A DNA stretch of 6,749 nucleotides from a virus (taxonomy: Duplodnaviria > Heunggongvirae > Uroviricota > Caudoviricetes). The notes beneath the pieces are model-generated. The model did no database searches and had not been told where the DNA came from. It was given only the letters and a program-made list of their open reading frames with translations. Of the stretch, positions 1 to 6,749 are shown piece after piece. The stretch's first letter is position 1. Every line of letters begins with the position of its first letter. A program made the translations under genes and the position numbers. The stretch lies in IMG/VR virus record IMGVR_UViG_2684622619_000016; one strand, written 5' to 3'.

Positions 1-62
1 TTAGTCATCCTGTTTACCTCTTTCTCAGGGAGTTTAGTCTCCAGGATTCCCGGGGCGGTTCA
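1..62 (-). mobile_element. Terminal 62 bp of an IS3-family insertion sequence (IS629/IS1203-like left end): terminal inverted repeat, RBS and first codons of an outward-reading transposase orfA; the IS body lies left of the window
   Basis: Seen: 1..62 is the reverse complement of 6690..6749 with one mismatch (position 49 vs 6703). On the minus strand it reads TGAACCGCCCCGGG...GAGAAAGAGG(8 nt)ATGACTAA, i.e. a terminus starting with TG, an AAGAGG Shine-Dalgarno (17..22) and ATG at 8..6 reading out of the window. Recalled, not searched: this matches the IS629-type left end and an OrfA beginning MTK. Confidence 0.75.
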
Positions 63-684
63 ATCTGCTGGCCGGAACTAATGAATTTATTGGTGAAGGT
101 GACGCATACATTCCGCCTCATACAGGTCTGCCAGCAAACAGTACCGATATTGCACCGCCAGATATTCCGGCTGGCTTCGTGGCTGTTTTCAACAGTAATG
201 AGGCATCGTGGCATCTCGTTGAAGATCATCGGGGTAAAACGGTTTATGACGTGGCTTCCGGCGACNNNNNNNNNNNNNNNNNNNNNNNNNNNNNNNNNNN
301 NNNNNNNNNNNNNNNCATCGGGGTAAAACGGTTTATGACGTGGCTTCCGGCGACGCGTTATTTATTTCTGAACTCGGTCCGTTACCGGAAAATGTTACCT
401 GGTTGTCGCCGGATGGAGAGTGTCAGAAGTGGAACGGCACATCCTGGGCGAAAGATGCAGAAGCAGAAAAACTGTTTCGGGTACGGGAGGCAGAAGAAAC
501 AAAAAACAGCCTGATGCAGGTAGCCAGTGAGCATATTGCGCCACTTCAGGATGCCGTAGATTTGGATATTGCGACGGAGGAAGAGGCATCGTTACTGGCT
601 GCATGGAAGACATATCGGGTATTGTTGAATCGTGTTGATACAACAGTAGCAGCGGATGTTGAGTGGCCAGTCGCCCCACAATAA
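63..684 (+). CDS. tfa: Tail fiber assembly protein (Tfa/gpG-like), 5'-truncated at the IS junction and interrupted by a scaffold gap; possibly a pseudogene
   Basis: Frame 2 translation 38..265 ([76 protein letters not shown]) continues after the gap in frame 1 (316..684: ...[48 protein letters not shown]...[16 protein letters not shown], stop TAA 682..684). This is the characteristic phage Tfa sequence. There is an in-frame TAG at 35..37 inside the IS and no ATG between 38 and 178; the first start-like codon is GTG at 179. Confidence 0.85.
227..354. repeat. Identical 39-bp direct duplicate (227..265 and 316..354) flanking a run of 50 N (266..315): scaffold gap with unmerged overlapping contig ends
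   Basis: Seen: CATCGGGGTAAAACGGTTTATGACGTGGCTTCCGGCGAC occurs on both sides of the N run. Removing 266..354 (89 nt) restores one continuous Tfa reading frame. Confidence 0.9.
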
Positions 685-690
685 AAAGAA

Positions 691-720
691 AAAGCCATCG
701 ACAGAAATATCGATGGCTTT
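691..720. terminator. Candidate bidirectional rho-independent terminator between the convergent tfa and acetyltransferase genes
   Basis: Seen: perfect 11-bp stem AAAGCCATCGA (691..701) / TCGATGGCTTT (710..720) with an 8-nt loop. An A-run lies at 683..692, which is a T-run on the minus strand, and TTT follows on the plus strand. It sits 6 nt past the acetyltransferase stop and 7 nt past the tfa stop. Confidence 0.5.
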
Positions 721-727
721 ATGTACT

Positions 728-1204
728 CTATTTATACAATACAACACCACTCTTTTTAGTTATATATGTGCAGTTTGATGGTATATCTTTATTTATAAAA
801 GACATTGCACCTATTTTTACATTATCCCCAATTTTACGTGATAATCCAATGATGCAACAATTAGCTCCGATATCAACGTTACTACCAATTTTTACTCTTG
901 AACTAGGCATATCACCATCTATCTGTCCAATGGTAGTATTCTGTCGTAATACCAGATTTTCACCCGCATCAACAGCAAAATGAACAACAATTCCAGCATG
1001 ATGGGGAATTGTCAACCCTTTTCCAATATTTGCGCCCAATCCTATTTCACAACCAAACTTGTTAATTATTTTACTGTTTAACTTTTTGGCTGCTTTCTTA
1101 TGTAATTTATTACCATTAATATACATTTCGTTAGCCAACCGCCACCAGAAAAGGAAATTCCGGTTACGCTGCTTTTTCTCTCTTAAAAGCCTCCAGATAT
1201 CCAT
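728..1204 (-). CDS. Hexapeptide-repeat acetyltransferase (left-handed beta-helix, serine acetyltransferase CysE/WcaB-like), cargo gene in an AT-rich island
   Basis: The translation contains tandem [LIV]-G-x4 hexapeptide repeats and a CysE/WcaB-like core (GCEIGLGANIGKGLTIPHHAGIVVHFAVDAGENLVLRQNTTIG...VKIGSNVDIGANCCIIGLSRKIGDNVKIGAMSFINKDIPSNCTYI). I chose the ATG at 1204 (MDIWRLL..., about 158 aa, the size of WcaB-like enzymes). The six-frame ORF extends to a GTG at 1333 (201 aa), but that N-terminal extension is low-complexity, AT-rich translation with no Shine-Dalgarno; the start is uncertain. Confidence 0.7.
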   Translation of the reverse strand: MDIWRLLREKKQRNRNFLFWWRLANEMYINGNKLHKKAAKKLNSKIINKFGCEIGLGANIGKGLTIPHHAGIVVHFAVDAGENLVLRQNTTIGQIDGDMPSSRVKIGSNVDIGANCCIIGLSRKIGDNVKIGAMSFINKDIPSNCTYITKKSGVVLYK

Positions 1205-1351
1205 ACGTTTCCGCCGAATTACTTCATGTTTCCAGAAGTTTTTTAAATTAGTAGAGTTTCCAAATAAAACAAAGTGAATTGCCATTAAGTAAGATAGCAC
1301 GATAATCTCCTTAATTATTATTTCAGACCACACATGTTATAAGGTTAAGAG

Positions 1352-1380
1352 ATTATAAAATCCTGTTATTTGTTATTCAA
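1352..1380 (-). promoter_or_regulatory. Candidate sigma70 promoter for the acetyltransferase cargo gene
   Basis: Seen on the minus strand: -35 TTGAAT (1380..1375), 17-nt spacer, perfect -10 TATAAT (1357..1352), in the AT-rich spacer between the gpU stop and the cargo gene. Confidence 0.4.
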
Positions 1381-1456
1381 AAACAATTTTCTGAGAAGGA
1401 CATACAACAGCAAGTCGCCAGTCACCTTCATCAGGAAATTGGCGACATACGTTAAA

Positions 1457-1951
1457 TCAGAGCAGCCCCTTAACTGAGCTGGCCGCGCTATTAAGGGATG
1501 ATGTCACCTTATCTTTGAAGCCGGACAGCATATCGCTGAACGATGAGGATTGCAGGCGCTCCCGCAAATCCTCATCACAGCGTTCAAGAGTCAGTGAAAA
1601 TTCTATCTTTTTCGCCTTACCGTAGCGATCAAACTCGGAGCGGGTCGTATTCGTTCCGGTCAGGACATACATGCCGTAAATCTGCCCGACGCCATCAATC
1701 AAAGGCCAAGGACGTCCTGTATATGCCTGCGTGGTCAACAACGACAGCGACACTTCGCCACCAGTAATCTCAGGATAAAGAACACCAGAAAGAACGATGC
1801 GATCATCACCTGCACCGATATACTGCCAGCTTGCTGAACGGTTAACGCGTTCATTTTTCACATGTCGCCAGCTTTTGTTTTGCTGTAACTGCTGATGCGG
1901 CAACGTGCGCAGCTCAAAAACAAACATGCCGTAGATCATCATCATGGCCAT
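1457..1951 (-). CDS. Phage tail protein gpU-like (P2 family)
   Basis: 164-aa ORF beginning MAMMMIYGMFVFELRTLPHQQLQ..., matching the P2 gpU family as I recall it. ATG at 1951 with a GGAG Shine-Dalgarno 4 nt upstream, 6 nt after the tape measure stop. Confidence 0.9.
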   Translation of the reverse strand: MAMMMIYGMFVFELRTLPHQQLQQNKSWRHVKNERVNRSASWQYIGAGDDRIVLSGVLYPEITGGEVSLSLLTTQAYTGRPWPLIDGVGQIYGMYVLTGTNTTRSEFDRYGKAKKIEFSLTLERCDEDLRERLQSSSFSDMLSGFKDKVTSSLNSAASSVKGLL

Positions 1952-1957
1952 GACTCC

Positions 1958-4797
1958 TCAATCTTTATCGTAAAAACTGCCACGCCTGGCACGGGCGCGC
2001 CGTTCCATTTCTGCCCTGACCATTTCGCCGACCAGTTTCGCCAGTTCGCGGGGATTCTGCGTAACAACGTTATGCAGATGAACATGAATTTCACCGCCAA
2101 ATCCGGAGGCAACAGGCTCCCGGTTACGGGAAGTTGCAGGAACTGATGCCACTGGCGATCGTATGGCCTCCACCACCGGGCGGGAGCTGGCCGCAACAAC
2201 AGGGACCAGCGCCGGAGGCAGCGGAGCCGGGACCACGGGTGTGATATTAATTGCGGGGGCAGGCTTACTGACCTGCGCAATCTTCCGCTCCTGCCACTCC
2301 CCACGAACAGCAAGTGCGCGGGGCAGGTTCTTAAAGACAATATCGCCGGGGCCAATGCGTTTTTTTGTCTCATCAACCAGCTTACCTGTGTTATCAGCAA
2401 TTTTGCTGAGTCTGCGTAGCGTGCCGGTATTGCTGTCTGTGAGAGGTTTGTTGTCTTTGGGTTTATCATCTCCGGTGCCATTGCTATTTCCCGCAGACTT
2501 CGGCGGATTGATTTTCGCAATGTCTCCCTGAAACAGAGCAACCTTGTCCTGAAGAATGGCCGCACGTTGTGCGTCTTCGATTTTCTTGCGCGCCCTTTCC
2601 GCTTCATCCGGAAGCACACCGAGTTTTTCAAGTATCCACGCCAGCGTATCCAGCAACATTTTTGCAGGCGTCAGAACAAGCTGTAACGCACCACCAAGAA
2701 CGTTACCGAATACCTCGCCAGCACTGGTACATTTATCCAGCGTTTCCTTGCTGGACTCCATCGGTGACAGCAGCGATTTAAACCAGTTAAACACCTGGCT
2801 GAACCGCTTCCGATTACGTCAAAAACAGGGCCAAACCGTTCAAAGGTGTCGCGCAACGGGGTCAGCCTTTCCATAATCCCGCTGAACACCCCGGCAAAGA
2901 AAGCCCTGATAGGATCCCAGTATTTCCAGATAAGAACGGCAGCTCCGGCAAGCGCAGCCACGATAAGACCAACCGGACTGAACAACGCCCCGATAACGCC
3001 TCCCAGTAAAGAAACGGAACCCGTCACCATTCCCCATAGCGCAGGTAACACCCTGACGACATTCATTGACCGGGTAAGAATGTCAAAACCAAGACGCAGG
3101 GTGGCCAGCTTCCCGTAAAGCACCCCAATAACCAGCGACAACGAGCCAATCGTTGCAGTCATTGCCAGCAACGCACCGCCTGCTATCAGTAGCTGGCGCG
3201 TCAGTACCGGATGGGCCTGCGCCAGCGAGGTGATTTTTTCAAGCACCCGCGTGAGCCACTGCGTGACAGAACGCAGCGGACCGTCAACCAGATCACTGAT
3301 GCGAATACGAAGACCTTCCCATGCGCTGTCGAGATTTTTCAGGTCCCCATCAAGATTATCAGCCATTACTTTTGCGACGCGATCGGCCTCTCCCCTTGCC
3401 CCCTGCAATTCTCTGGTCAGTTTTTGCAGCTCTCCTGAACCAGCCGCCGCAACAAGCGTCTGCAAACCAACGAACGCCTCTTCTCCGGCGATGTCCTTGA
3501 AGAAGGAGACCTGGTCCACCTGTCCGTATTTTTGTGTCGCCTTATAGAGATCAAGCAGCACATCCTCCATCGGGCGCATTTTGCCTCTGGCGTCAGCAAC
3601 TGACACCCCCAGCTCTTTCAGTGCATCAGCCGCAGCTTTTGGCGGTGATGCAAGGCGGGACAGACTTGCGCGCATGGCCGTGCCAGCATCGCTTCCGCGA
3701 AGACCATTATTGGCAAGCATCCCGGCCATGGCCGCCGCTTCTTCAAGACTGATACCAAGTTTTGCGGCAACCGGACCGGTATACTTCATGGTTTCGCCCA
3801 GCGCGCGTAAATCAGTATTGGTCCGGGTAAATGCTGCTGTCAGCGTATCGCCCACCCGGTCCATTTGATCGGCTGTCAGGTTGAACTGTGTGAGGATATT
3901 GGAGCCTATATCAGCCGTCTCGCCGAGTTCGACGCCACCTGCCAGCGCCATATTAAGAACACCGGGCAATGCGGCCTGAATGGCCTGCGGAGTAAAACCA
4001 GCCATTGCCAGAAAGCTCTGCCCACTGGCGGCATCACTCGCAGTAAACTGTGTTTCAGCAAGTTTTAACGCCTGCTCACGCAGCGCCTTAAACTGCGGGC
4101 TGTTTTTGTCGATTCGCGTCAGTGCCTGAACGCGGGACATCTCTTTGCCGAACCCGATCGCAGGCTGCAAAAAACGCCCGGCAGCATAGCCGCCCGCCGC
4201 TGCCGCACCAATTGCCAGCGCACCACCTGTTTTCAGTTTTCCCGCGGTTTCCTGCGCGTGCGAATACCGCTCACGCGCCTGCGTTACACGCGCAAGCGCC
4301 TGCCGTTCGCGTTCAAGCTGGTTGTTGTATTGTTCGGTGCGTCTGATGGCCTGCTGAATGGTGTTATCGCTGCCTGTCAGGGAAATGCCGTGGCGTTTCA
4401 GCTCTCCGCCAAGTTCCCTCATTTTCTGAATTTCCCGTGTGCGCGATTCATTCAGGCGTTCAAGCCGGGTGCTTAACTGCTGCATCAGCTTTTGTTGTTT
4501 TTCGCTGAGCACTGTACCCGTGCGTTGTAACTGATTAAGGGCGTTAAGCTGGCGTCGTGCTTTCACGATGCCAGCATCCGCTTTACTGACAGCGTCGCGG
4601 GCGCGCTCAAATGATCGCGCCTGACGCTCGAGATTTTTGATCGCCCCCTGCGTTCGCTGGATGGAGTCACCAAACTGCCCCATCAGGCGGCGTGCGTTTT
4701 CGGCAGGTCGGGTCAGCCTGTCAACGGCGCTGAAAGCGACCCGGATATCAAGAGTCTTCATTGTCTGCATTCCCGCTGCGAAGTGCCGCCCGCTCAC
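1958..4797 (-). CDS. Tail tape measure protein (gpT-like) with an apparent frameshift near 2795..2815 that splits it into 708-aa and 278-aa ORFs
   Basis: The large ORF 2671..4797 is Ala/Leu/Gln/Arg-rich with predicted coiled-coil character and a glycine-rich hydrophobic segment, typical of tape measure proteins. ORF 1958..2794 continues in another frame (...FNWFKSLLSPMESSKETLDK...RRGSFYDKD) and ends 6 nt before gpU. The last ~40 codons of the 708-aa frame look like out-of-frame read-through. Start is ambiguous: GTG 4797, ATG 4770 or ATG 4761, all overlapping the E' end. Confidence 0.85.
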
Positions 4798-5277
4798 GCC
4801 AGCTAACCACTTCGCCGGGCGTCATCATGAAGATTTCGGCGGGCGACCAGTTAAAAATAACGGCAATATCTGCCACAAAGTCTTCTATGTGCTCAAAGCA
4901 CACAACCGTGATCAGGCTTCCGTCGCCTGTTCGTTCTTCCCGCCAGAGTCCGCACCGCTCAAAAAATTTACGGCAACCACACATAACTGAATAAAGTCAC
5001 GGGATGCCATTTTTTTGATCGTCACTTCATCCAGTCGCGGTGATGTCACGCGTGACAGCAGCGTAAACATGGATTCCGCTTTCAGATTCAGCACATCAGA
5101 CAGCGACAAATCTCGCAGAGATCCAGCCTGCTCAATAGCCCCGGTGATCTCCACATACGTGATTTTTTCGCCGCCTCGCTCAATTGGTTGGGTAAGTTTT
5201 ACACCACGCTCACTGGTTTCTTTCACAGTGTCAGTAACTACCGTGTTTTCGGTATCGATGTTTTTCGTCTCTTTCAT
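4748..5277 (-). CDS. Tail assembly chaperone gpE-like (4912..5277) and its -1 frameshift extension product E+E' (to the stop at 4748..4750)
   Basis: gpE ORF has ATG at 5277 with an AAGGAG Shine-Dalgarno 8 nt upstream and stop TGA at 4912..4914. The overlapping -1 frame ORF 4748..4984 (…FFERCGLWREERTGDGS…) is entered at the TTTTTTG heptamer. Its end overlaps the tape measure start, as in the P2 FI-FII-E-T-U-D operon. Confidence 0.75.
4960..4966 (-). other. Programmed -1 ribosomal frameshift slippery heptamer T TTT TTG (E to E+E')
   Basis: Seen: minus-strand ...GCC GTA AAT TTT TTG AGC... in the gpE frame. A -1 shift reads TTT TTT GAG CGG..., which is exactly the 4748..4984 ORF. Recalled: the P2 E/E' frameshift uses this heptamer. 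Confidence 0.7.
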
Positions 5278-5331
5278 CAGGAAACTCCTTTCAGTCAGAG
5301 GCGACGCACTGCGCCGCCTGCATATTACTTA

Positions 5332-5844
5332 TCAGCCAAGCCCAAGCGCGGAACGGATGCGATCGGGCACAATGTCCTTGCCGTCCTTCCGGTAAATGAA
5401 GTTCAGCAGGTCAATCTCCCACAACGGGCGATCGTTAACACTCAGCTTGTAGTAGGTGTTTTTAATGGCGTAAGTGTGTGATGTGGCTTCGCCCTGTTTG
5501 GCTTCCCCCATATCAATTTCCGTCACACGTCCGCGCATTTCGACTTCATACAGGTCGCTTTCATCATCGGTGTAGTATTCCCCCGCAAAACGCAGTAGCG
5601 TGCCGTCAATCGTGCCGCCATACTTCAGGAACAGCTCACGAACTGCGCCCCCCATGACAAAGCTCGCATCAAGCGCGGAGTCGTCCAGGCCGAGGTCAAT
5701 ACTTACCGCACCCATCATGCCACCACCCCGGTAGCTGTCGGTTTTGCGCGTCAGTTTAGGCAGGGTGACGGACGTCACCTTACCCACTTCGTTTTCACCA
5801 TCCACAAACAGCGTAAAAAAGCGAAGATGTTTTGGTACAGCCAT
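5332..5844 (-). CDS. Major tail tube protein (FII-like, P2 family)
   Basis: 170-aa ORF (MAVPKHLRFFTLFVDGENEVGKVTSVTLPKLTRKTDSYRGGGMMGAV...) with the P2 FII architecture. ATG at 5844 with a GGGAGG Shine-Dalgarno; the start overlaps the sheath stop as TGATG. Confidence 0.9.
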   Translation of the reverse strand: MAVPKHLRFFTLFVDGENEVGKVTSVTLPKLTRKTDSYRGGGMMGAVSIDLGLDDSALDASFVMGGAVRELFLKYGGTIDGTLLRFAGEYYTDDESDLYEVEMRGRVTEIDMGEAKQGEATSHTYAIKNTYYKLSVNDRPLWEIDLLNFIYRKDGKDIVPDRIRSALGLG

Positions 5845-6689
5845 CAGGCACCTCCCAGCACCGCAAATGCGGGACCAAAGAATTCATCAGTAAACGACTG
5901 GTAAAGCTCCATGTCTTCCAGCGGAGGAACGGGCGTATATTTGTAGCGAATACGCACACGCCCCTGACGTAAATTCGTGGTGCTGTTATCCTCGATGTCA
6001 TACCAGCACTCCGCGCCAATCAGTTTCCCGGCAGTAACCAGTGAATCCAGTTTTGCCCTGATGGCACTGATAACATCCTTCACGTTCGCAGGTGTCAGTG
6101 GACTGTCGATGGTTTCAAACTGCGCTTCCGCAATTGAATCAGCCAGCACCTGTGCGGTTCGGGTATACACCTCAAAGATGTAGGCGTTCGTTTCCGGTGT
6201 GCGGTTGCCCCAGAAGCGGAACCCGTTGCGACGAATAATGGTCGTGATTTCTTTGTTGTTGAGGCTGTTGGCATCACTGTCTTCGGCCTGCAACGACCAG
6301 AACACATGCCTCGACATCCCAAGCACATTTTTAACCGGAACGTTGGACAGCGATTTGTGCCAGCCCTGCTCATGGTCAATGTACGCACGAAGGCCGCACG
6401 CATAAGCAGGCGCGGGGAACGTTTCGTTTTTGCCACTTTTCAGGTTGTAGGCGATGAAGTCAGGCCATAAGAGCATCACCTCACGTTCGTTGAATTTCTG
6501 GCGGTAGGTAATCGCCTCAGCCATCGTGTTACAACCATGTGGCATACACAAACGCGCGCAGTTTACCCGCAATCACGCACAGGGATTTTGTTACCGCCTC
6601 CGTGTCCAGCTCCGGCGCGGCCAGAATACGCGGACGGTATCCGATGCTTTCATCCTGCTCTGCAACAAGCAGCGCATACATCCCCGTAT
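5844..6689 (-). pseudogene. Tail sheath protein (FI-like), 5'-truncated by the IS at 6689/6690 and carrying an apparent frameshift at about 6535..6540
   Basis: The C-terminal part (to the stop at 5844..5846) reads ...AITYRQKFNEREVMLLWPDFIAY...HEQGWHKSLSNV...IIRRNGFRFWGNRT...YKYTPVPPLED, which is sheath-like. The part upstream of the shift is in another frame (6689..6532: NTGMYALLVAEQDESIGYRPRILAAPELDTEAVTKSLCVIAGKLRAFVYATW). Together they correspond to roughly residue 115 onward of a ~390-aa sheath. There is no start codon; the frame runs into the IS end. Confidence 0.85.
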
Positions 6690-6749
6690 TGAACCGCCCC
6701 GGAAATCCTGGAGACTAAACTCCCTGAGAAAGAGGTAAACAGGATGACT
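6690..6749 (+). mobile_element. Terminal 60 bp of a second IS3-family (IS629/IS1203-like) copy, left end, with transposase orfA starting at ATG 6744 and reading out of the window
   Basis: Seen: TGAACCGCCCCGGAAATCCTGGAGACTAAACTCCCTGAGAAAGAGGTAAACAGGATGACT. It is inverted relative to 1..62 and differs at one base (6703), so these are two distinct copies rather than an assembly duplication. Confidence 0.75.

What the first reader, a model, noticed from the sequence alone, without database searches (positions are those of the whole stretch)
63..1951. Non-canonical gene order: tfa convergent with the sheath-to-gpU operon, and gpD missing
In P2-like phages the tail fiber and Tfa genes and the FI-FII-E-T-U-D genes are co-directional, and gpD follows gpU. 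Here the operon ends at gpU, is followed by the foreign island, and meets a Tfa fragment on the opposite strand at a shared hairpin. This points to a deletion or rearrangement, possibly IS-mediated, or to a chimera of two prophage remnants. Without a baseplate, gpD or intact sheath the element cannot make tails, so a functional phage or tailocin is unlikely from this locus alone.
Basis: partly seen in the sequence, partly recalled or inferred. Interest (0 to 1): 0.5.

Follow-up and report, generated by a model that had tools for sequence, protein, structure and literature searches.

The report
Native gene order, decayed O157 prophage
The odd-looking gene order is the normal layout of P88-like (Xuanwuvirus) relatives of phage P2; the window is the long-known defective prophage Sp13/CP-933T of E. 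coli O157:H7, further broken by insertion sequences, so the finding is ordinary.

Summary
A 5'-truncated tfa gene on the + strand (63-684) meets a low-GC acetyltransferase gene (728-1300, - strand) at a strong hairpin (691-720). gpU (1457-1945, - strand) follows, and there is no gpD in the window.

With an assembly artefact removed (the N-run plus a duplicated 39 nt), the window is 100% identical to E. coli O157 strain CEC13091. It is near-identical to EDL933, where it lies in the known P2-like defective prophage.

Two working phages, P88 and Citrobacter phiSM, have the same layout: fibre and tfa genes converge on U-T-E-FII-FI, and gpD sits beyond FI on the other strand. Strain UTAK-15 carries an apparently intact prophage at the same chromosomal site with exactly tfa, acetyltransferase, gpU.

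So the orientation and the position of gpD are native, not a rearrangement or a chimera. The real damage is separate:
- An IS629-like element replaced 16.4 kb and the first 15 tfa codons.
- The tape-measure gene has a 1-nt deletion.
- The sheath gene has a 5-nt deletion and an IS1203 insertion.
- gpD is cut by IS30.

One side lead is mildly interesting: the fibre tip, tfa and acetyltransferase move together between unrelated phages.

The parts
1..62 (-). Terminal 62 nt of an IS629/IS1203-like (IS3 family) element. It reads leftwards out of the window. In complete genomes this copy is a truncated, frameshifted 1059-nt remnant.
   Evidence: Inverted repeat with 6688-6749, 98% complementary. RefSeq annotates 'IS3 family transposase, frameshifted; incomplete'. 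It is 95.3% identical to the full IS1203 copy. The IS|tfa junction is present in 264 complete genomes.
63..684 (+). tfa (tail fibre assembly) gene lacking its first 15 codons and native start. In this window it is also interrupted by the assembly artefact.
   Evidence: Pfam Caudo_TAP, E=5.4e-40. Homology to the full-length 579-nt tfa of UTAK-15 begins at nt 46 of that gene. RefSeq calls a CDS from a CTG at window 65.
266..354 (.). Scaffolding artefact: 50 N plus a duplicated 39 nt (316-354 = 227-265).
   Evidence: Direct repeat D1. The window without 266-354 is 100% identical over 6660 nt to CEC13091.
691..720 (.). Hairpin between the convergent tfa and acetyltransferase genes. It looks like an intrinsic terminator, with a good T-run on the - strand and a weak one on the + strand.
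   Evidence: 13-bp stem followed by TTCTTTTTAT on the - strand. Energy is -20.5 kcal/mol (z -7.5) on the - strand and -16.1 kcal/mol (z -4.9) on the + strand.
728..1300 (-). 190-aa left-handed beta-helix (hexapeptide) acetyltransferase, annotated 'serine O-acetyltransferase'. It is low-GC cargo (a moron).
   Evidence: PHROG 2154, E=2.9e-87. NCBIfam EpsC, CysE and WcaB hits are all far below their cut-offs. PDB CysE C-terminal domains match at E=1.5e-12. GC is 0.32-0.37. GTG start at 1300, preceded by AAGGAG at 1312-1307.
1352..1380 (-). Promoter-like site (TTGAAT, 17 nt, TATAAT) upstream of the acetyltransferase gene.
   Evidence: Consensus scan, 10 of 12 matches. The number of such sites in the region is not above chance, so this is suggestive only.
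1414..1446 (-). Hairpin just downstream of the gpU stop; a candidate terminator of the FI-U operon.
   Evidence: -21.3 kcal/mol, z -4.3; sequence. Homology to P88 ends at 1451.
1457..1945 (-). gpU tail protein gene, the last gene of the FI-FII-E-E'-T-U operon.
   Evidence: Pfam Phage_P2_GpU, E=1.5e-38. 97% nt identity to P88 gp44. RefSeq 'phage tail protein'.
1958..4761 (-). Tape-measure gene T, a pseudogene. It has a 1-nt deletion near 2803 (frameshift) and an in-frame 3-nt deletion near 4059, relative to intact relatives.
   Evidence: Indels against UTAK-15, SMN197SH3 and P88. RefSeq 'frameshifted'. Split ORFs at 1958-2794 and 2671-4797.
4748..5277 (-). gpE (4912-5277) and the E' extension (to 4748), with the -1 slippery heptamer T TTT TTG at 4966-4960.
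   Evidence: ORFs; sequence. RefSeq 'GpE family' and 'tail protein'. The E+E' frameshift is annotated in P2.
5332..5844 (-). FII tail tube gene.
   Evidence: Pfam Phage_tube, E=1.3e-47.
5844..6689 (-). 3' 846 nt of the FI sheath gene. It carries a 5-nt deletion at 6536 and is cut by the IS1203 insertion.
   Evidence: Pfam Phage_sheath_1 and Phage_sheath_1C. 5-nt gap against EDL933. IS junction with a 3-bp TAT target duplication in CEC13091.
6690..6749 (+). First 60 nt of a complete 1310-bp IS1203/IS629 copy inserted in the sheath gene.
   Evidence: 100% identical to the annotated 'IS3-like element IS1203 family transposase' copy in CEC13091.

Best explanation
The window is the tail-gene end of the defective P2-like prophage Sp13/CP-933T of E. 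coli O157:H7. It comes from a draft assembly of a strain like CEC13091, and the contig stops at IS629/IS1203 copies on both sides.

**The gene order is native (shown).** This prophage belongs to the P88-like lineage (Xuanwuvirus, Peduoviridae). In that lineage the FI-FII-E-E'-T-U block lies in the opposite orientation to P2. It converges on the tail-fibre/tfa genes, and gpD, followed by ogr, is transcribed divergently from the far side of FI.

**The variable slot (shown).** The slot between tfa and gpU holds an invertible alternative-fibre segment plus an invertase in P88 and phiSM. In this sublineage it holds a low-GC acetyltransferase moron. The position and convergent orientation are the same as for fun(Z) after gene G in P2.

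**Later decay (shown).**
- A truncated IS629-like element replaced about 16.4 kb (head, lysis, baseplate and fibre genes) plus the first 15 codons of tfa.
- IS30 and a 3.3-kb deletion destroyed gpD, ogr and hok.
- T acquired a 1-nt frameshift.
- In this strain, FI acquired a 5-nt deletion and an IS1203 insertion.

**Inferred.** The acetyltransferase is an independently transcribed lysogenic-conversion gene with its own promoter-like site, Shine-Dalgarno sequence and terminator hairpin. It probably O-acetylates a cell-envelope polysaccharide precursor rather than serine.
For: **Identity**
- Window 316-2100 is 100% identical to EDL933 and many other complete O157:H7 genomes.
- The de-gapped window is 100% identical over 6660 nt to CEC13091, including both IS junctions.
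- In EDL933 and CEC13091 the locus lies between yecA and tRNA-Leu/Cys/Gly. The order is int, early genes, replication endonuclease, ParM, IS3-family remnant, tfa(+), acetyltransferase(-), U, T (frameshifted), E', E, FII, FI (-), gpD fragment (+), IS30.
- Sp13 is published as the only P2-like prophage of O157 Sakai and as lacking most morphogenetic genes (PMC2669165).

**Native order**
- P88 has fibre+, tfa+, tfa'-, fibre'-, invertase+, then U-, T-, E'-, E-, FII-, FI-, then D+. It is 93.7% identical to window 1451-6689.
- phiSM has the same order. Both phages are functional.
- UTAK-15 has a prophage at the same chromosomal site running from integrase to hok. All morphogenesis genes are annotated intact, with H+, tfa+ (579 nt), SAT-, U-, T-, E'-, E-, FII-, FI-, D+ (1101 nt), ogr+.
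- SMN197SH3 shows the same order at a different site.
- The 1001-nt tfa/SAT/gpU junction probe is at least 80% covered in 510 of 5426 complete genomes.
- P2 itself is H+, G+, fun(Z)-, FI+ ... U+, D+, ogr+.

**Decay**
- Deletion limits against UTAK-15.
- IS1203 with a 3-bp target duplication in FI.
- 5-nt deletion in FI.
- 1-nt deletion in T.
- IS30 with a 2-bp duplication in gpD.

**Moron**
- GC profile.
- Promoter-like site and terminator.
Against: - No isolated phage in the phage collection carries the exact tfa/acetyltransferase/gpU arrangement. No record covers at least 80% of the probe.
- The UTAK-15 prophage is judged intact from annotation only, and two small early ORFs are flagged partial.
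- The promoter-like site is not statistically distinguishable from chance (4 found, 3.8 expected).
- The substrate of the acetyltransferase is unknown. A paper on phage JL22 says so explicitly (PMC9603915).
- The names Sp13 and CP-933T are assigned from the published description plus my own memory of the locus, not from a coordinate match to the Sakai record.
Confidence: 0.93

Rival explanations
1. A P2-type co-directional layout was rearranged in this element, by IS-mediated inversion or deletion or by fusion of two prophage remnants. That rearrangement placed tfa opposite gpU and removed gpD.
For: - IS ends flank the window in inverted orientation.
- An IS-associated deletion truncates tfa.
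- P2 itself is co-directional, with D after U.
Against: - The same order occurs without any IS at these junctions in the functional phages P88 and phiSM and in the UTAK-15 and SMN197SH3 prophages.
- Homology to UTAK-15 runs unbroken from tfa through the gpD 5' end.
- gpD is present beyond FI.
Confidence: 0.03
2. An assembly artefact. The N-run at 266-315 marks a false join between a tfa from one prophage and the tail operon of another.
For: - There is a 50-N gap inside tfa.
- tfa-like sequences occur at several places in each genome.
Against: - The gap flanks overlap by 39 identical nt.
- The de-gapped window is 100% identical and collinear with the complete genome of CEC13091, and collinear with EDL933 apart from one 5-nt gap.
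Confidence: 0.01
3. Recombination between the two inverted IS629-type copies in this strain flipped the 6.6-kb segment relative to the rest of the prophage.
For: Two IS copies lie in inverted orientation and are 95% identical over 1059 nt.
Against: - In CEC13091, which has both copies, the segment has the same orientation relative to the flanking ParM and gpD genes as in EDL933, which has only the left copy.
- Such a flip would not change the internal tfa/SAT/gpU order in any case.
Confidence: 0.02

Closest known systems
Prophage Sp13 (Sakai) / CP-933T (EDL933) of E. coli O157:H7
   Same: It is this element. Identity to O157:H7 genomes is 100% or near it, with the same chromosomal neighbours, the same IS|tfa junction, the same T frameshift and the same gpD remnant. 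It is published as a P2-like prophage that lacks most morphogenetic genes yet still excises and replicates after mitomycin C (PMC2669165).
   Different: The strain behind this window, like CEC13091, has two extra lesions in the sheath gene: a 5-nt deletion and an IS1203 insertion. Only 1 of 5426 complete genomes shares that junction in one piece.
Phage P88 and Citrobacter phage phiSM (Xuanwuvirus, Peduoviridae)
   Same: The fibre and tfa genes converge on U-T-E'-E-FII-FI, and gpD is divergent beyond FI. Nucleotide identity to P88 is 93.7% across window 1451-6689.
   Different: - They are complete, functional phages.
- Between tfa and gpU they carry an inverted alternative fibre/tfa set plus a DNA invertase, where this element has the acetyltransferase.
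- Homology to P88 stops at window 1451.
Phage P2 (Peduovirus)
   Same: The same set of tail genes, including the E/E' frameshift. A non-essential lysogenic-conversion gene, fun(Z), also lies convergent directly after the tfa gene G.
   Different: In P2, FI-FII-E-T-U-D-ogr is one co-directional operon downstream of H and G. Here the FI-U block is in the opposite orientation and D is separate.
Tail-fibre C-segment of P1-like phage-plasmids JL22 and vB_EcoM-Ro157c2YLVW (Punavirus)
   Same: The fibre C-terminal tip (about 610 nt), tfa and the convergent acetyltransferase are about 94% identical as one 1.8-kb block, with the same tfa -> <- SAT layout.
   Different: The backbone is unrelated. In those phages the block sits inside the invertible C-segment next to S'/U' and cin, not next to gpU.
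NeuO, the polysialic acid O-acetyltransferase of prophage CUS-3
   Same: It is a prophage-encoded hexapeptide-repeat O-acetyltransferase that modifies a surface polysaccharide and raises resistance to phage (titles and abstracts of PMC3046976 and PMC13001214). This makes it a functional precedent for the inferred role.
   Different: NeuO is not among the 33 PDB sequences matched at E<=0.001. The window gene has no 5' heptanucleotide repeat tract, and its substrate is unknown.

Membership tests
P88-like Peduoviridae (Xuanwuvirus) prophage | High nucleotide similarity of the tail operon to P88 | tested here: met
   Window 1451-6689 is 93.7% identical to P88 27594-32841. The gpU/T segment is 95.7-97.1% identical to P88, P884B11, 520873, 503458, 500465-2, PhiR44_2 and phiSM, and 92.8% to phage Chuche.
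P88-like Peduoviridae (Xuanwuvirus) prophage | Gene order: fibre and tfa converge on U-T-E-FII-FI, with gpD divergent beyond FI | tested here: met
   Order in P88, phiSM, UTAK-15 and EDL933/CEC13091, compared with the window ORFs.
Canonical P2 (Peduovirus) late-gene layout | H-G and FI-FII-E-T-U-D are co-directional, and D is immediately downstream of U | tested here: not met
   P2 annotation against the window and EDL933.
Sp13/CP-933T of O157:H7 | Sequence identity and chromosomal position in O157:H7 genomes | tested here: met
   100% identity to EDL933 and many other O157:H7 strains. Position between yecA and tRNA-Leu/Cys/Gly. The published description of Sp13 matches. The names themselves rest partly on my memory.
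IS629/IS1203 (IS3 family) | Terminal sequence identical to an annotated full copy, with a short target-site duplication | tested here: met
   Window 6690-6749 equals the start of the 1310-bp copy annotated 'IS3-like element IS1203 family transposase'. A 3-bp TAT duplication flanks it in CEC13091. The left copy (window 1-62) is a truncated 1059-nt remnant, 95% identical.
Serine O-acetyltransferase CysE (equivalog) | Score above the curated NCBIfam cut-off, and an N-terminal SATase domain | tested here: not met
   TIGR01172 scores 62.4 bits against a cut-off of 210.65; PRK11132 scores 36.6 against 397. There is no Pfam SATase_N hit. PDB matches cover only the C-terminal beta-helix, residues 54-180.
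Left-handed beta-helix (hexapeptide) acyltransferase superfamily | Hexapeptide repeats and similarity to LbH acetyltransferase domains | tested here: met
   PDB CysE, maltose and galactoside acetyltransferases match at E from 1.5e-12 to 1e-6. There are 19 NCBIfam LbH families at E<1e-3. Pfam Hexapep scores 24.4 bits, just under its cut-off of 27.
Phage moron (lysogenic-conversion cassette) | Non-essential gene with deviant composition, its own promoter and terminator, inserted between conserved phage genes | tested here: inconclusive
   - Met: GC is 0.32-0.37 against 0.50 or more.
- Met: terminator hairpin.
- Met: the slot is occupied by different cargo in P88.
- Not decisive: the promoter-like site is not above chance.
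- Not testable here: expression.
R-type tailocin / functional contractile tail module | Intact sheath, tube, tape measure, baseplate, hub (gpD) and fibre genes | tested here: not met
   - Baseplate and fibre genes are deleted.
- T is frameshifted.
- The sheath gene is interrupted.
- gpD is truncated.

The most novel reading that the evidence does not exclude
The fibre tip, tfa and convergent acetyltransferase form one portable 'recognise and mask the receptor' cassette. The beta-helix acetyltransferase would O-acetylate the envelope polysaccharide (LPS or an exopolysaccharide precursor) that the cognate fibre tip binds. That would protect lysogens from superinfection and stop progeny being lost on debris.

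Support:
- The 1.8-kb block is about 94% identical between P88-like prophages and P1-like phage-plasmids.
- Acetyltransferase homologues of 38-57% identity sit at the distal end of the tail-fibre module in four further backbones: phiNP, Hafnia phage yong2, a Salmonella remnant and ESSI2_ev040.
- Tfa and acetyltransferase identities fall roughly together across these phages.
- phiNP uses LPS core as its receptor.

Not excluded: the end of the fibre operon may simply be a permissive landing site for any moron.
Probability: 0.25. Interest if true: 0.45.

Novelty: already known. Interest (0 to 1): 0.1.

Why it matters
It matters little for biology. The element is a well-described defective prophage of O157:H7, and its gene order is the standard one for a recognised phage genus.

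The practical lesson is for annotation. P2 is not the synteny reference for all P2-like phages, and a contig bounded by IS ends with an internal N-run should not be read as a rearrangement.

The strain-specific IS1203 insertion and the 5-nt deletion in the sheath gene are small markers of continuing IS629-driven decay, and could be useful for O157 subtyping.

The only forward-looking point is the recurrent linkage of a function-unknown acetyltransferase with tail-fibre and tfa genes. If that gene modifies a receptor, it would add a new class of lysogenic-conversion and superinfection-exclusion genes.

Tried and rejected
- **Misjoin at the N-run.** Rejected: the flanks overlap by 39 nt and the de-gapped window is collinear with closed genomes.
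- **Inversion between the two inverted IS copies.** Rejected: CEC13091 and EDL933 have the same orientation.
- **An isolated phage with the exact tfa/SAT/gpU junction.** None found. The best phage records cover either tfa+SAT (P1-like) or gpU+T (P88-like), never both. Only prophages in bacterial genomes have it.
- **True CysE, WcaB or EpsC.** Rejected: every curated NCBIfam cut-off is missed by a wide margin.
- **Ogr-type activator site.** A strict TGT-N12-ACA search of the FI/gpD divergent intergenic region found nothing. It also found nothing in P2's own pF region, so the test was uninformative.
- **Rfam scan.** It returned only 'IS009' inside tfa, which is irrelevant to the gene order.
- **Literature on the acetyltransferase.** The only paper that holds all three search terms says its role in phage JL22 is unknown. 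The C. rodentium paper lists the phiNP homologue only as 'fitness' cargo.
- **Not run.** I did not run the large protein-database searches or structure prediction. The question about gene order was settled without them.
Full report
**What is in the window.**
- A tail-fibre assembly gene fragment lies on the + strand at 63-684 (Caudo_TAP, E=5.4e-40).
- A 190-aa hexapeptide acetyltransferase gene lies on the - strand at 728-1300. Its GC is 0.32-0.37, against 0.50 or more in the flanks.
- gpU lies on the - strand at 1457-1945 (Phage_P2_GpU, E=1.5e-38).
- Upstream on the - strand are T, E/E', FII (Phage_tube, E=1.3e-47) and the 3' part of the sheath gene FI.
- A 13-bp-stem hairpin at 691-720 separates the convergent tfa and acetyltransferase genes. 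It folds at -16.1 kcal/mol on the + strand and -20.5 kcal/mol on the - strand, with z-scores of -4.9 and -7.5. The proper T-run is on the - strand.
- There is no gpD in the window.

- The N-run at 266-315 is flanked by an exact 39-nt duplication (227-265 = 316-354). Removing 266-354 gives a 6660-nt sequence that is 100% identical, end to end, to the complete genome of E. coli CEC13091. The gap is a scaffolding artefact.
- The window ends (1-62 and 6690-6749) are inverted copies of one IS end. In CEC13091 the right one is the start of a 1310-bp element annotated 'IS3-like element IS1203 family transposase'. It is inserted in the sheath gene with a 3-bp TAT target duplication. IS1203 is an isoform of IS629, from my own knowledge. 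The left one is the end of a truncated, frameshifted 1059-nt IS3-family remnant. The contig therefore simply ends in repeats.

**Where it comes from.**
- Window 316-2100 is 100% identical to EDL933, TW14359, EC4115 and many other complete O157:H7 genomes.
- In EDL933 the locus lies between yecA and tRNA-Leu/Cys/Gly. The order is integrase, early genes, replication endonuclease, ParM and a partition gene, the IS3-family remnant, tfa (+), acetyltransferase (-), gpU, T (frameshifted), E', E, FII, FI (all -), a 267-nt gpD fragment (+), then IS30.
- This matches the published Sp13 of strain Sakai. It is the only P2-like prophage of O157 and lacks most morphogenetic genes, yet still excises and replicates after mitomycin C (PMC2669165).
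- Against EDL933 the window differs only by a 5-nt deletion in FI at 6536 and by the IS1203 insertion. Only CEC13091 among 5426 complete genomes shares that FI|IS junction in one piece.

**Is the order a rearrangement? No.**
- Phage P88 (Xuanwuvirus, Peduoviridae) is annotated as fibre+, tfa+, tfa'-, fibre'-, invertase+, then U-, T-, E'-, E-, FII-, FI-, then gpD+. It is 93.7% identical to window 1451-6689.
- P88 was induced with mitomycin C, forms plaques and shows myovirus particles (PMC5285337).
- Citrobacter phage phiSM belongs to the same genus and has the same order. It is spontaneously released, forms plaques and lysogenises (PMC6456863).
- E. coli UTAK-15 carries a prophage at the same yecA/tRNA-Leu site, running from integrase to hok. 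All head, lysis, baseplate and tail genes are annotated intact. It has exactly H+, tfa+ (579 nt), acetyltransferase-, U-, T-, E'-, E-, FII-, FI-, gpD+ (1101 nt), ogr+.
- SMN197SH3 shows the same order at another chromosomal site.
- The tfa/acetyltransferase/gpU junction probe is at least 80% covered in 510 of 5426 complete genomes.
- P2 itself is H+, G+, fun(Z)-, FI+ ... U+, D+, ogr+.

So relative to P2 the whole FI-U block is inverted in this lineage, and D-ogr stays put. A convergent conversion gene right after the tfa gene is already a P2 feature. The convergent order is thus native in two functional phages; they carry an invertible segment rather than the acetyltransferase cargo, and the exact cargo arrangement is seen only in an untested prophage.

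**What really happened to this element.** The comparison with UTAK-15 and related checks show four lesions.
- About 16.4 kb was lost, from just after the partition gene to nt 45 of tfa. This removed the portal, terminase, capsid, lysis, R/S, baseplate and fibre genes, and the IS629-like remnant now sits in their place. The IS|tfa junction is present in 264 complete genomes. RefSeq nevertheless calls the truncated tfa a CDS from a CTG codon.
- gpD is split by IS30 after nt 267, with a 2-bp CT duplication. About 77 nt later a 3.3-kb deletion removes the rest of gpD, ogr and hok.
- T has a 1-nt deletion near 2803 relative to three intact relatives.
- In this strain, FI is hit twice, by the 5-nt deletion and the IS1203 insertion.

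**The cargo slot.**
- Homology to P88 ends 6 nt after the gpU stop, at window 1451.
- In UTAK-15 the segment from the fibre C-terminus through the acetyltransferase replaces P88's fibre tip, tfa, inverted tfa'/fibre' and invertase.
- That segment (fibre tip of about 610 nt, tfa and acetyltransferase) is about 94% identical to a block inside the invertible C-segment of the P1-like phage-plasmids JL22 and Ro157c2YLVW.
- The roughly 150 nt between the acetyltransferase start and gpU is specific to this variant. It holds a hairpin after gpU (-21.3 kcal/mol, z -4.3), a TTGAAT-17-TATAAT site and an AAGGAG-N6-GTG start.
- The protein belongs to phage family PHROG 2154 (E=2.9e-87).
- It resembles the beta-helix domain of CysE, EpsC and WcaB but misses every curated cut-off and has no SATase N-domain. 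'Serine O-acetyltransferase' is a name by similarity only.
- Its role in JL22 is stated to be unknown (PMC9603915).

**A side lead.**
- Homologues of 38-57% identity sit at the distal end of the tail-fibre module in several other backbones. In Citrobacter phiNP and Hafnia phage yong2 the gene is convergent, immediately after tfa. The same placement is seen in a Salmonella prophage remnant, and in ESSI2_ev040 if its linear record is treated as circular.
- Tfa and acetyltransferase identities to the UTAK-15 pair fall roughly together: 94/91% for JL22, 57/44% for phiNP, 55/44% for ESSI2_ev040 and 46/38% for yong2.
- By analogy with the prophage-encoded hexapeptide O-acetyltransferase NeuO, which modifies the K1 capsule and raises phage resistance, I infer a surface-polysaccharide-modifying, possibly receptor-masking, conversion function.
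- This is inference only. The end of the fibre operon may simply be a tolerant landing site for any moron.

**Verdict.** The element and its gene order are already known, so interest is low.

Noticed in passing
window 266-354: A 50-N run is followed by an exact repeat of the preceding 39 nt. This is a scaffolder gap placed between overlapping contig ends, and it splits the tfa ORF artificially.
   Followed up: yes
window 449-647 (+): Rfam family RF02111 'IS009' matches at 191 bits (gathering score 117), entirely inside the tfa coding sequence. This candidate sRNA family appears to coincide with a conserved part of tfa genes.
   Followed up: no
L001 27130-27140 and 28300-28330 (EDL933); L004 26890-26900 and 29420-29440 (SMN197SH3): IS30 is inserted at the identical nucleotide of gpD (after nt 267), in the same orientation and with a 2-bp CT duplication. 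The two prophages sit at different chromosomal sites (yecA/tRNA-Leu and pdxB/flk). This is either an IS30 hot spot or shared ancestry followed by relocation.
   Followed up: partly
window 65-684; L001 19839-20369: RefSeq annotates the IS-truncated tfa as a complete 176-aa protein (WP_001310336.1) starting at a CTG immediately after the IS end. The native ATG and 15 codons are missing.
   Followed up: partly
window 6536 and 6689/6690: This strain and CEC13091 have a 5-nt deletion (CATGA in EDL933) and an IS1203 insertion (TAT duplication) in the sheath gene. EDL933 has neither. These are lineage-specific markers of continuing decay.
   Followed up: yes
L005 18934-20733; L006 5178-6977; L007 5180-6977: The fibre C-terminal tip, tfa and the convergent acetyltransferase are shared as one block, about 94% identical, between P88-like prophages and P1-like phage-plasmids. 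More distant homologues of the acetyltransferase also sit next to tfa in phiNP and Hafnia phage yong2.
   Followed up: partly
window 4960-4966 (- strand): The slippery heptamer T TTT TTG for the gpE/gpE+E' -1 programmed frameshift is conserved about 50 nt before the E stop. RefSeq annotates E' as a separate 'GpE family' ORF.
   Followed up: partly
L012 13408-15859 (phiSM, OR565851.1): The GenBank record of phiSM labels the sheath gene 'late control gene D protein' and the gpD gene 'ogr/Delta-like zinc finger'. Judged by position and length against P88, these are annotation slips.
   Followed up: no
window 62-265: The 5' part of this tfa is 94-98.5% identical to tfaQ and tfaR of lambdoid prophages in many E. 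coli genomes. tfa is a widely exchanged mosaic unit.
   Followed up: no
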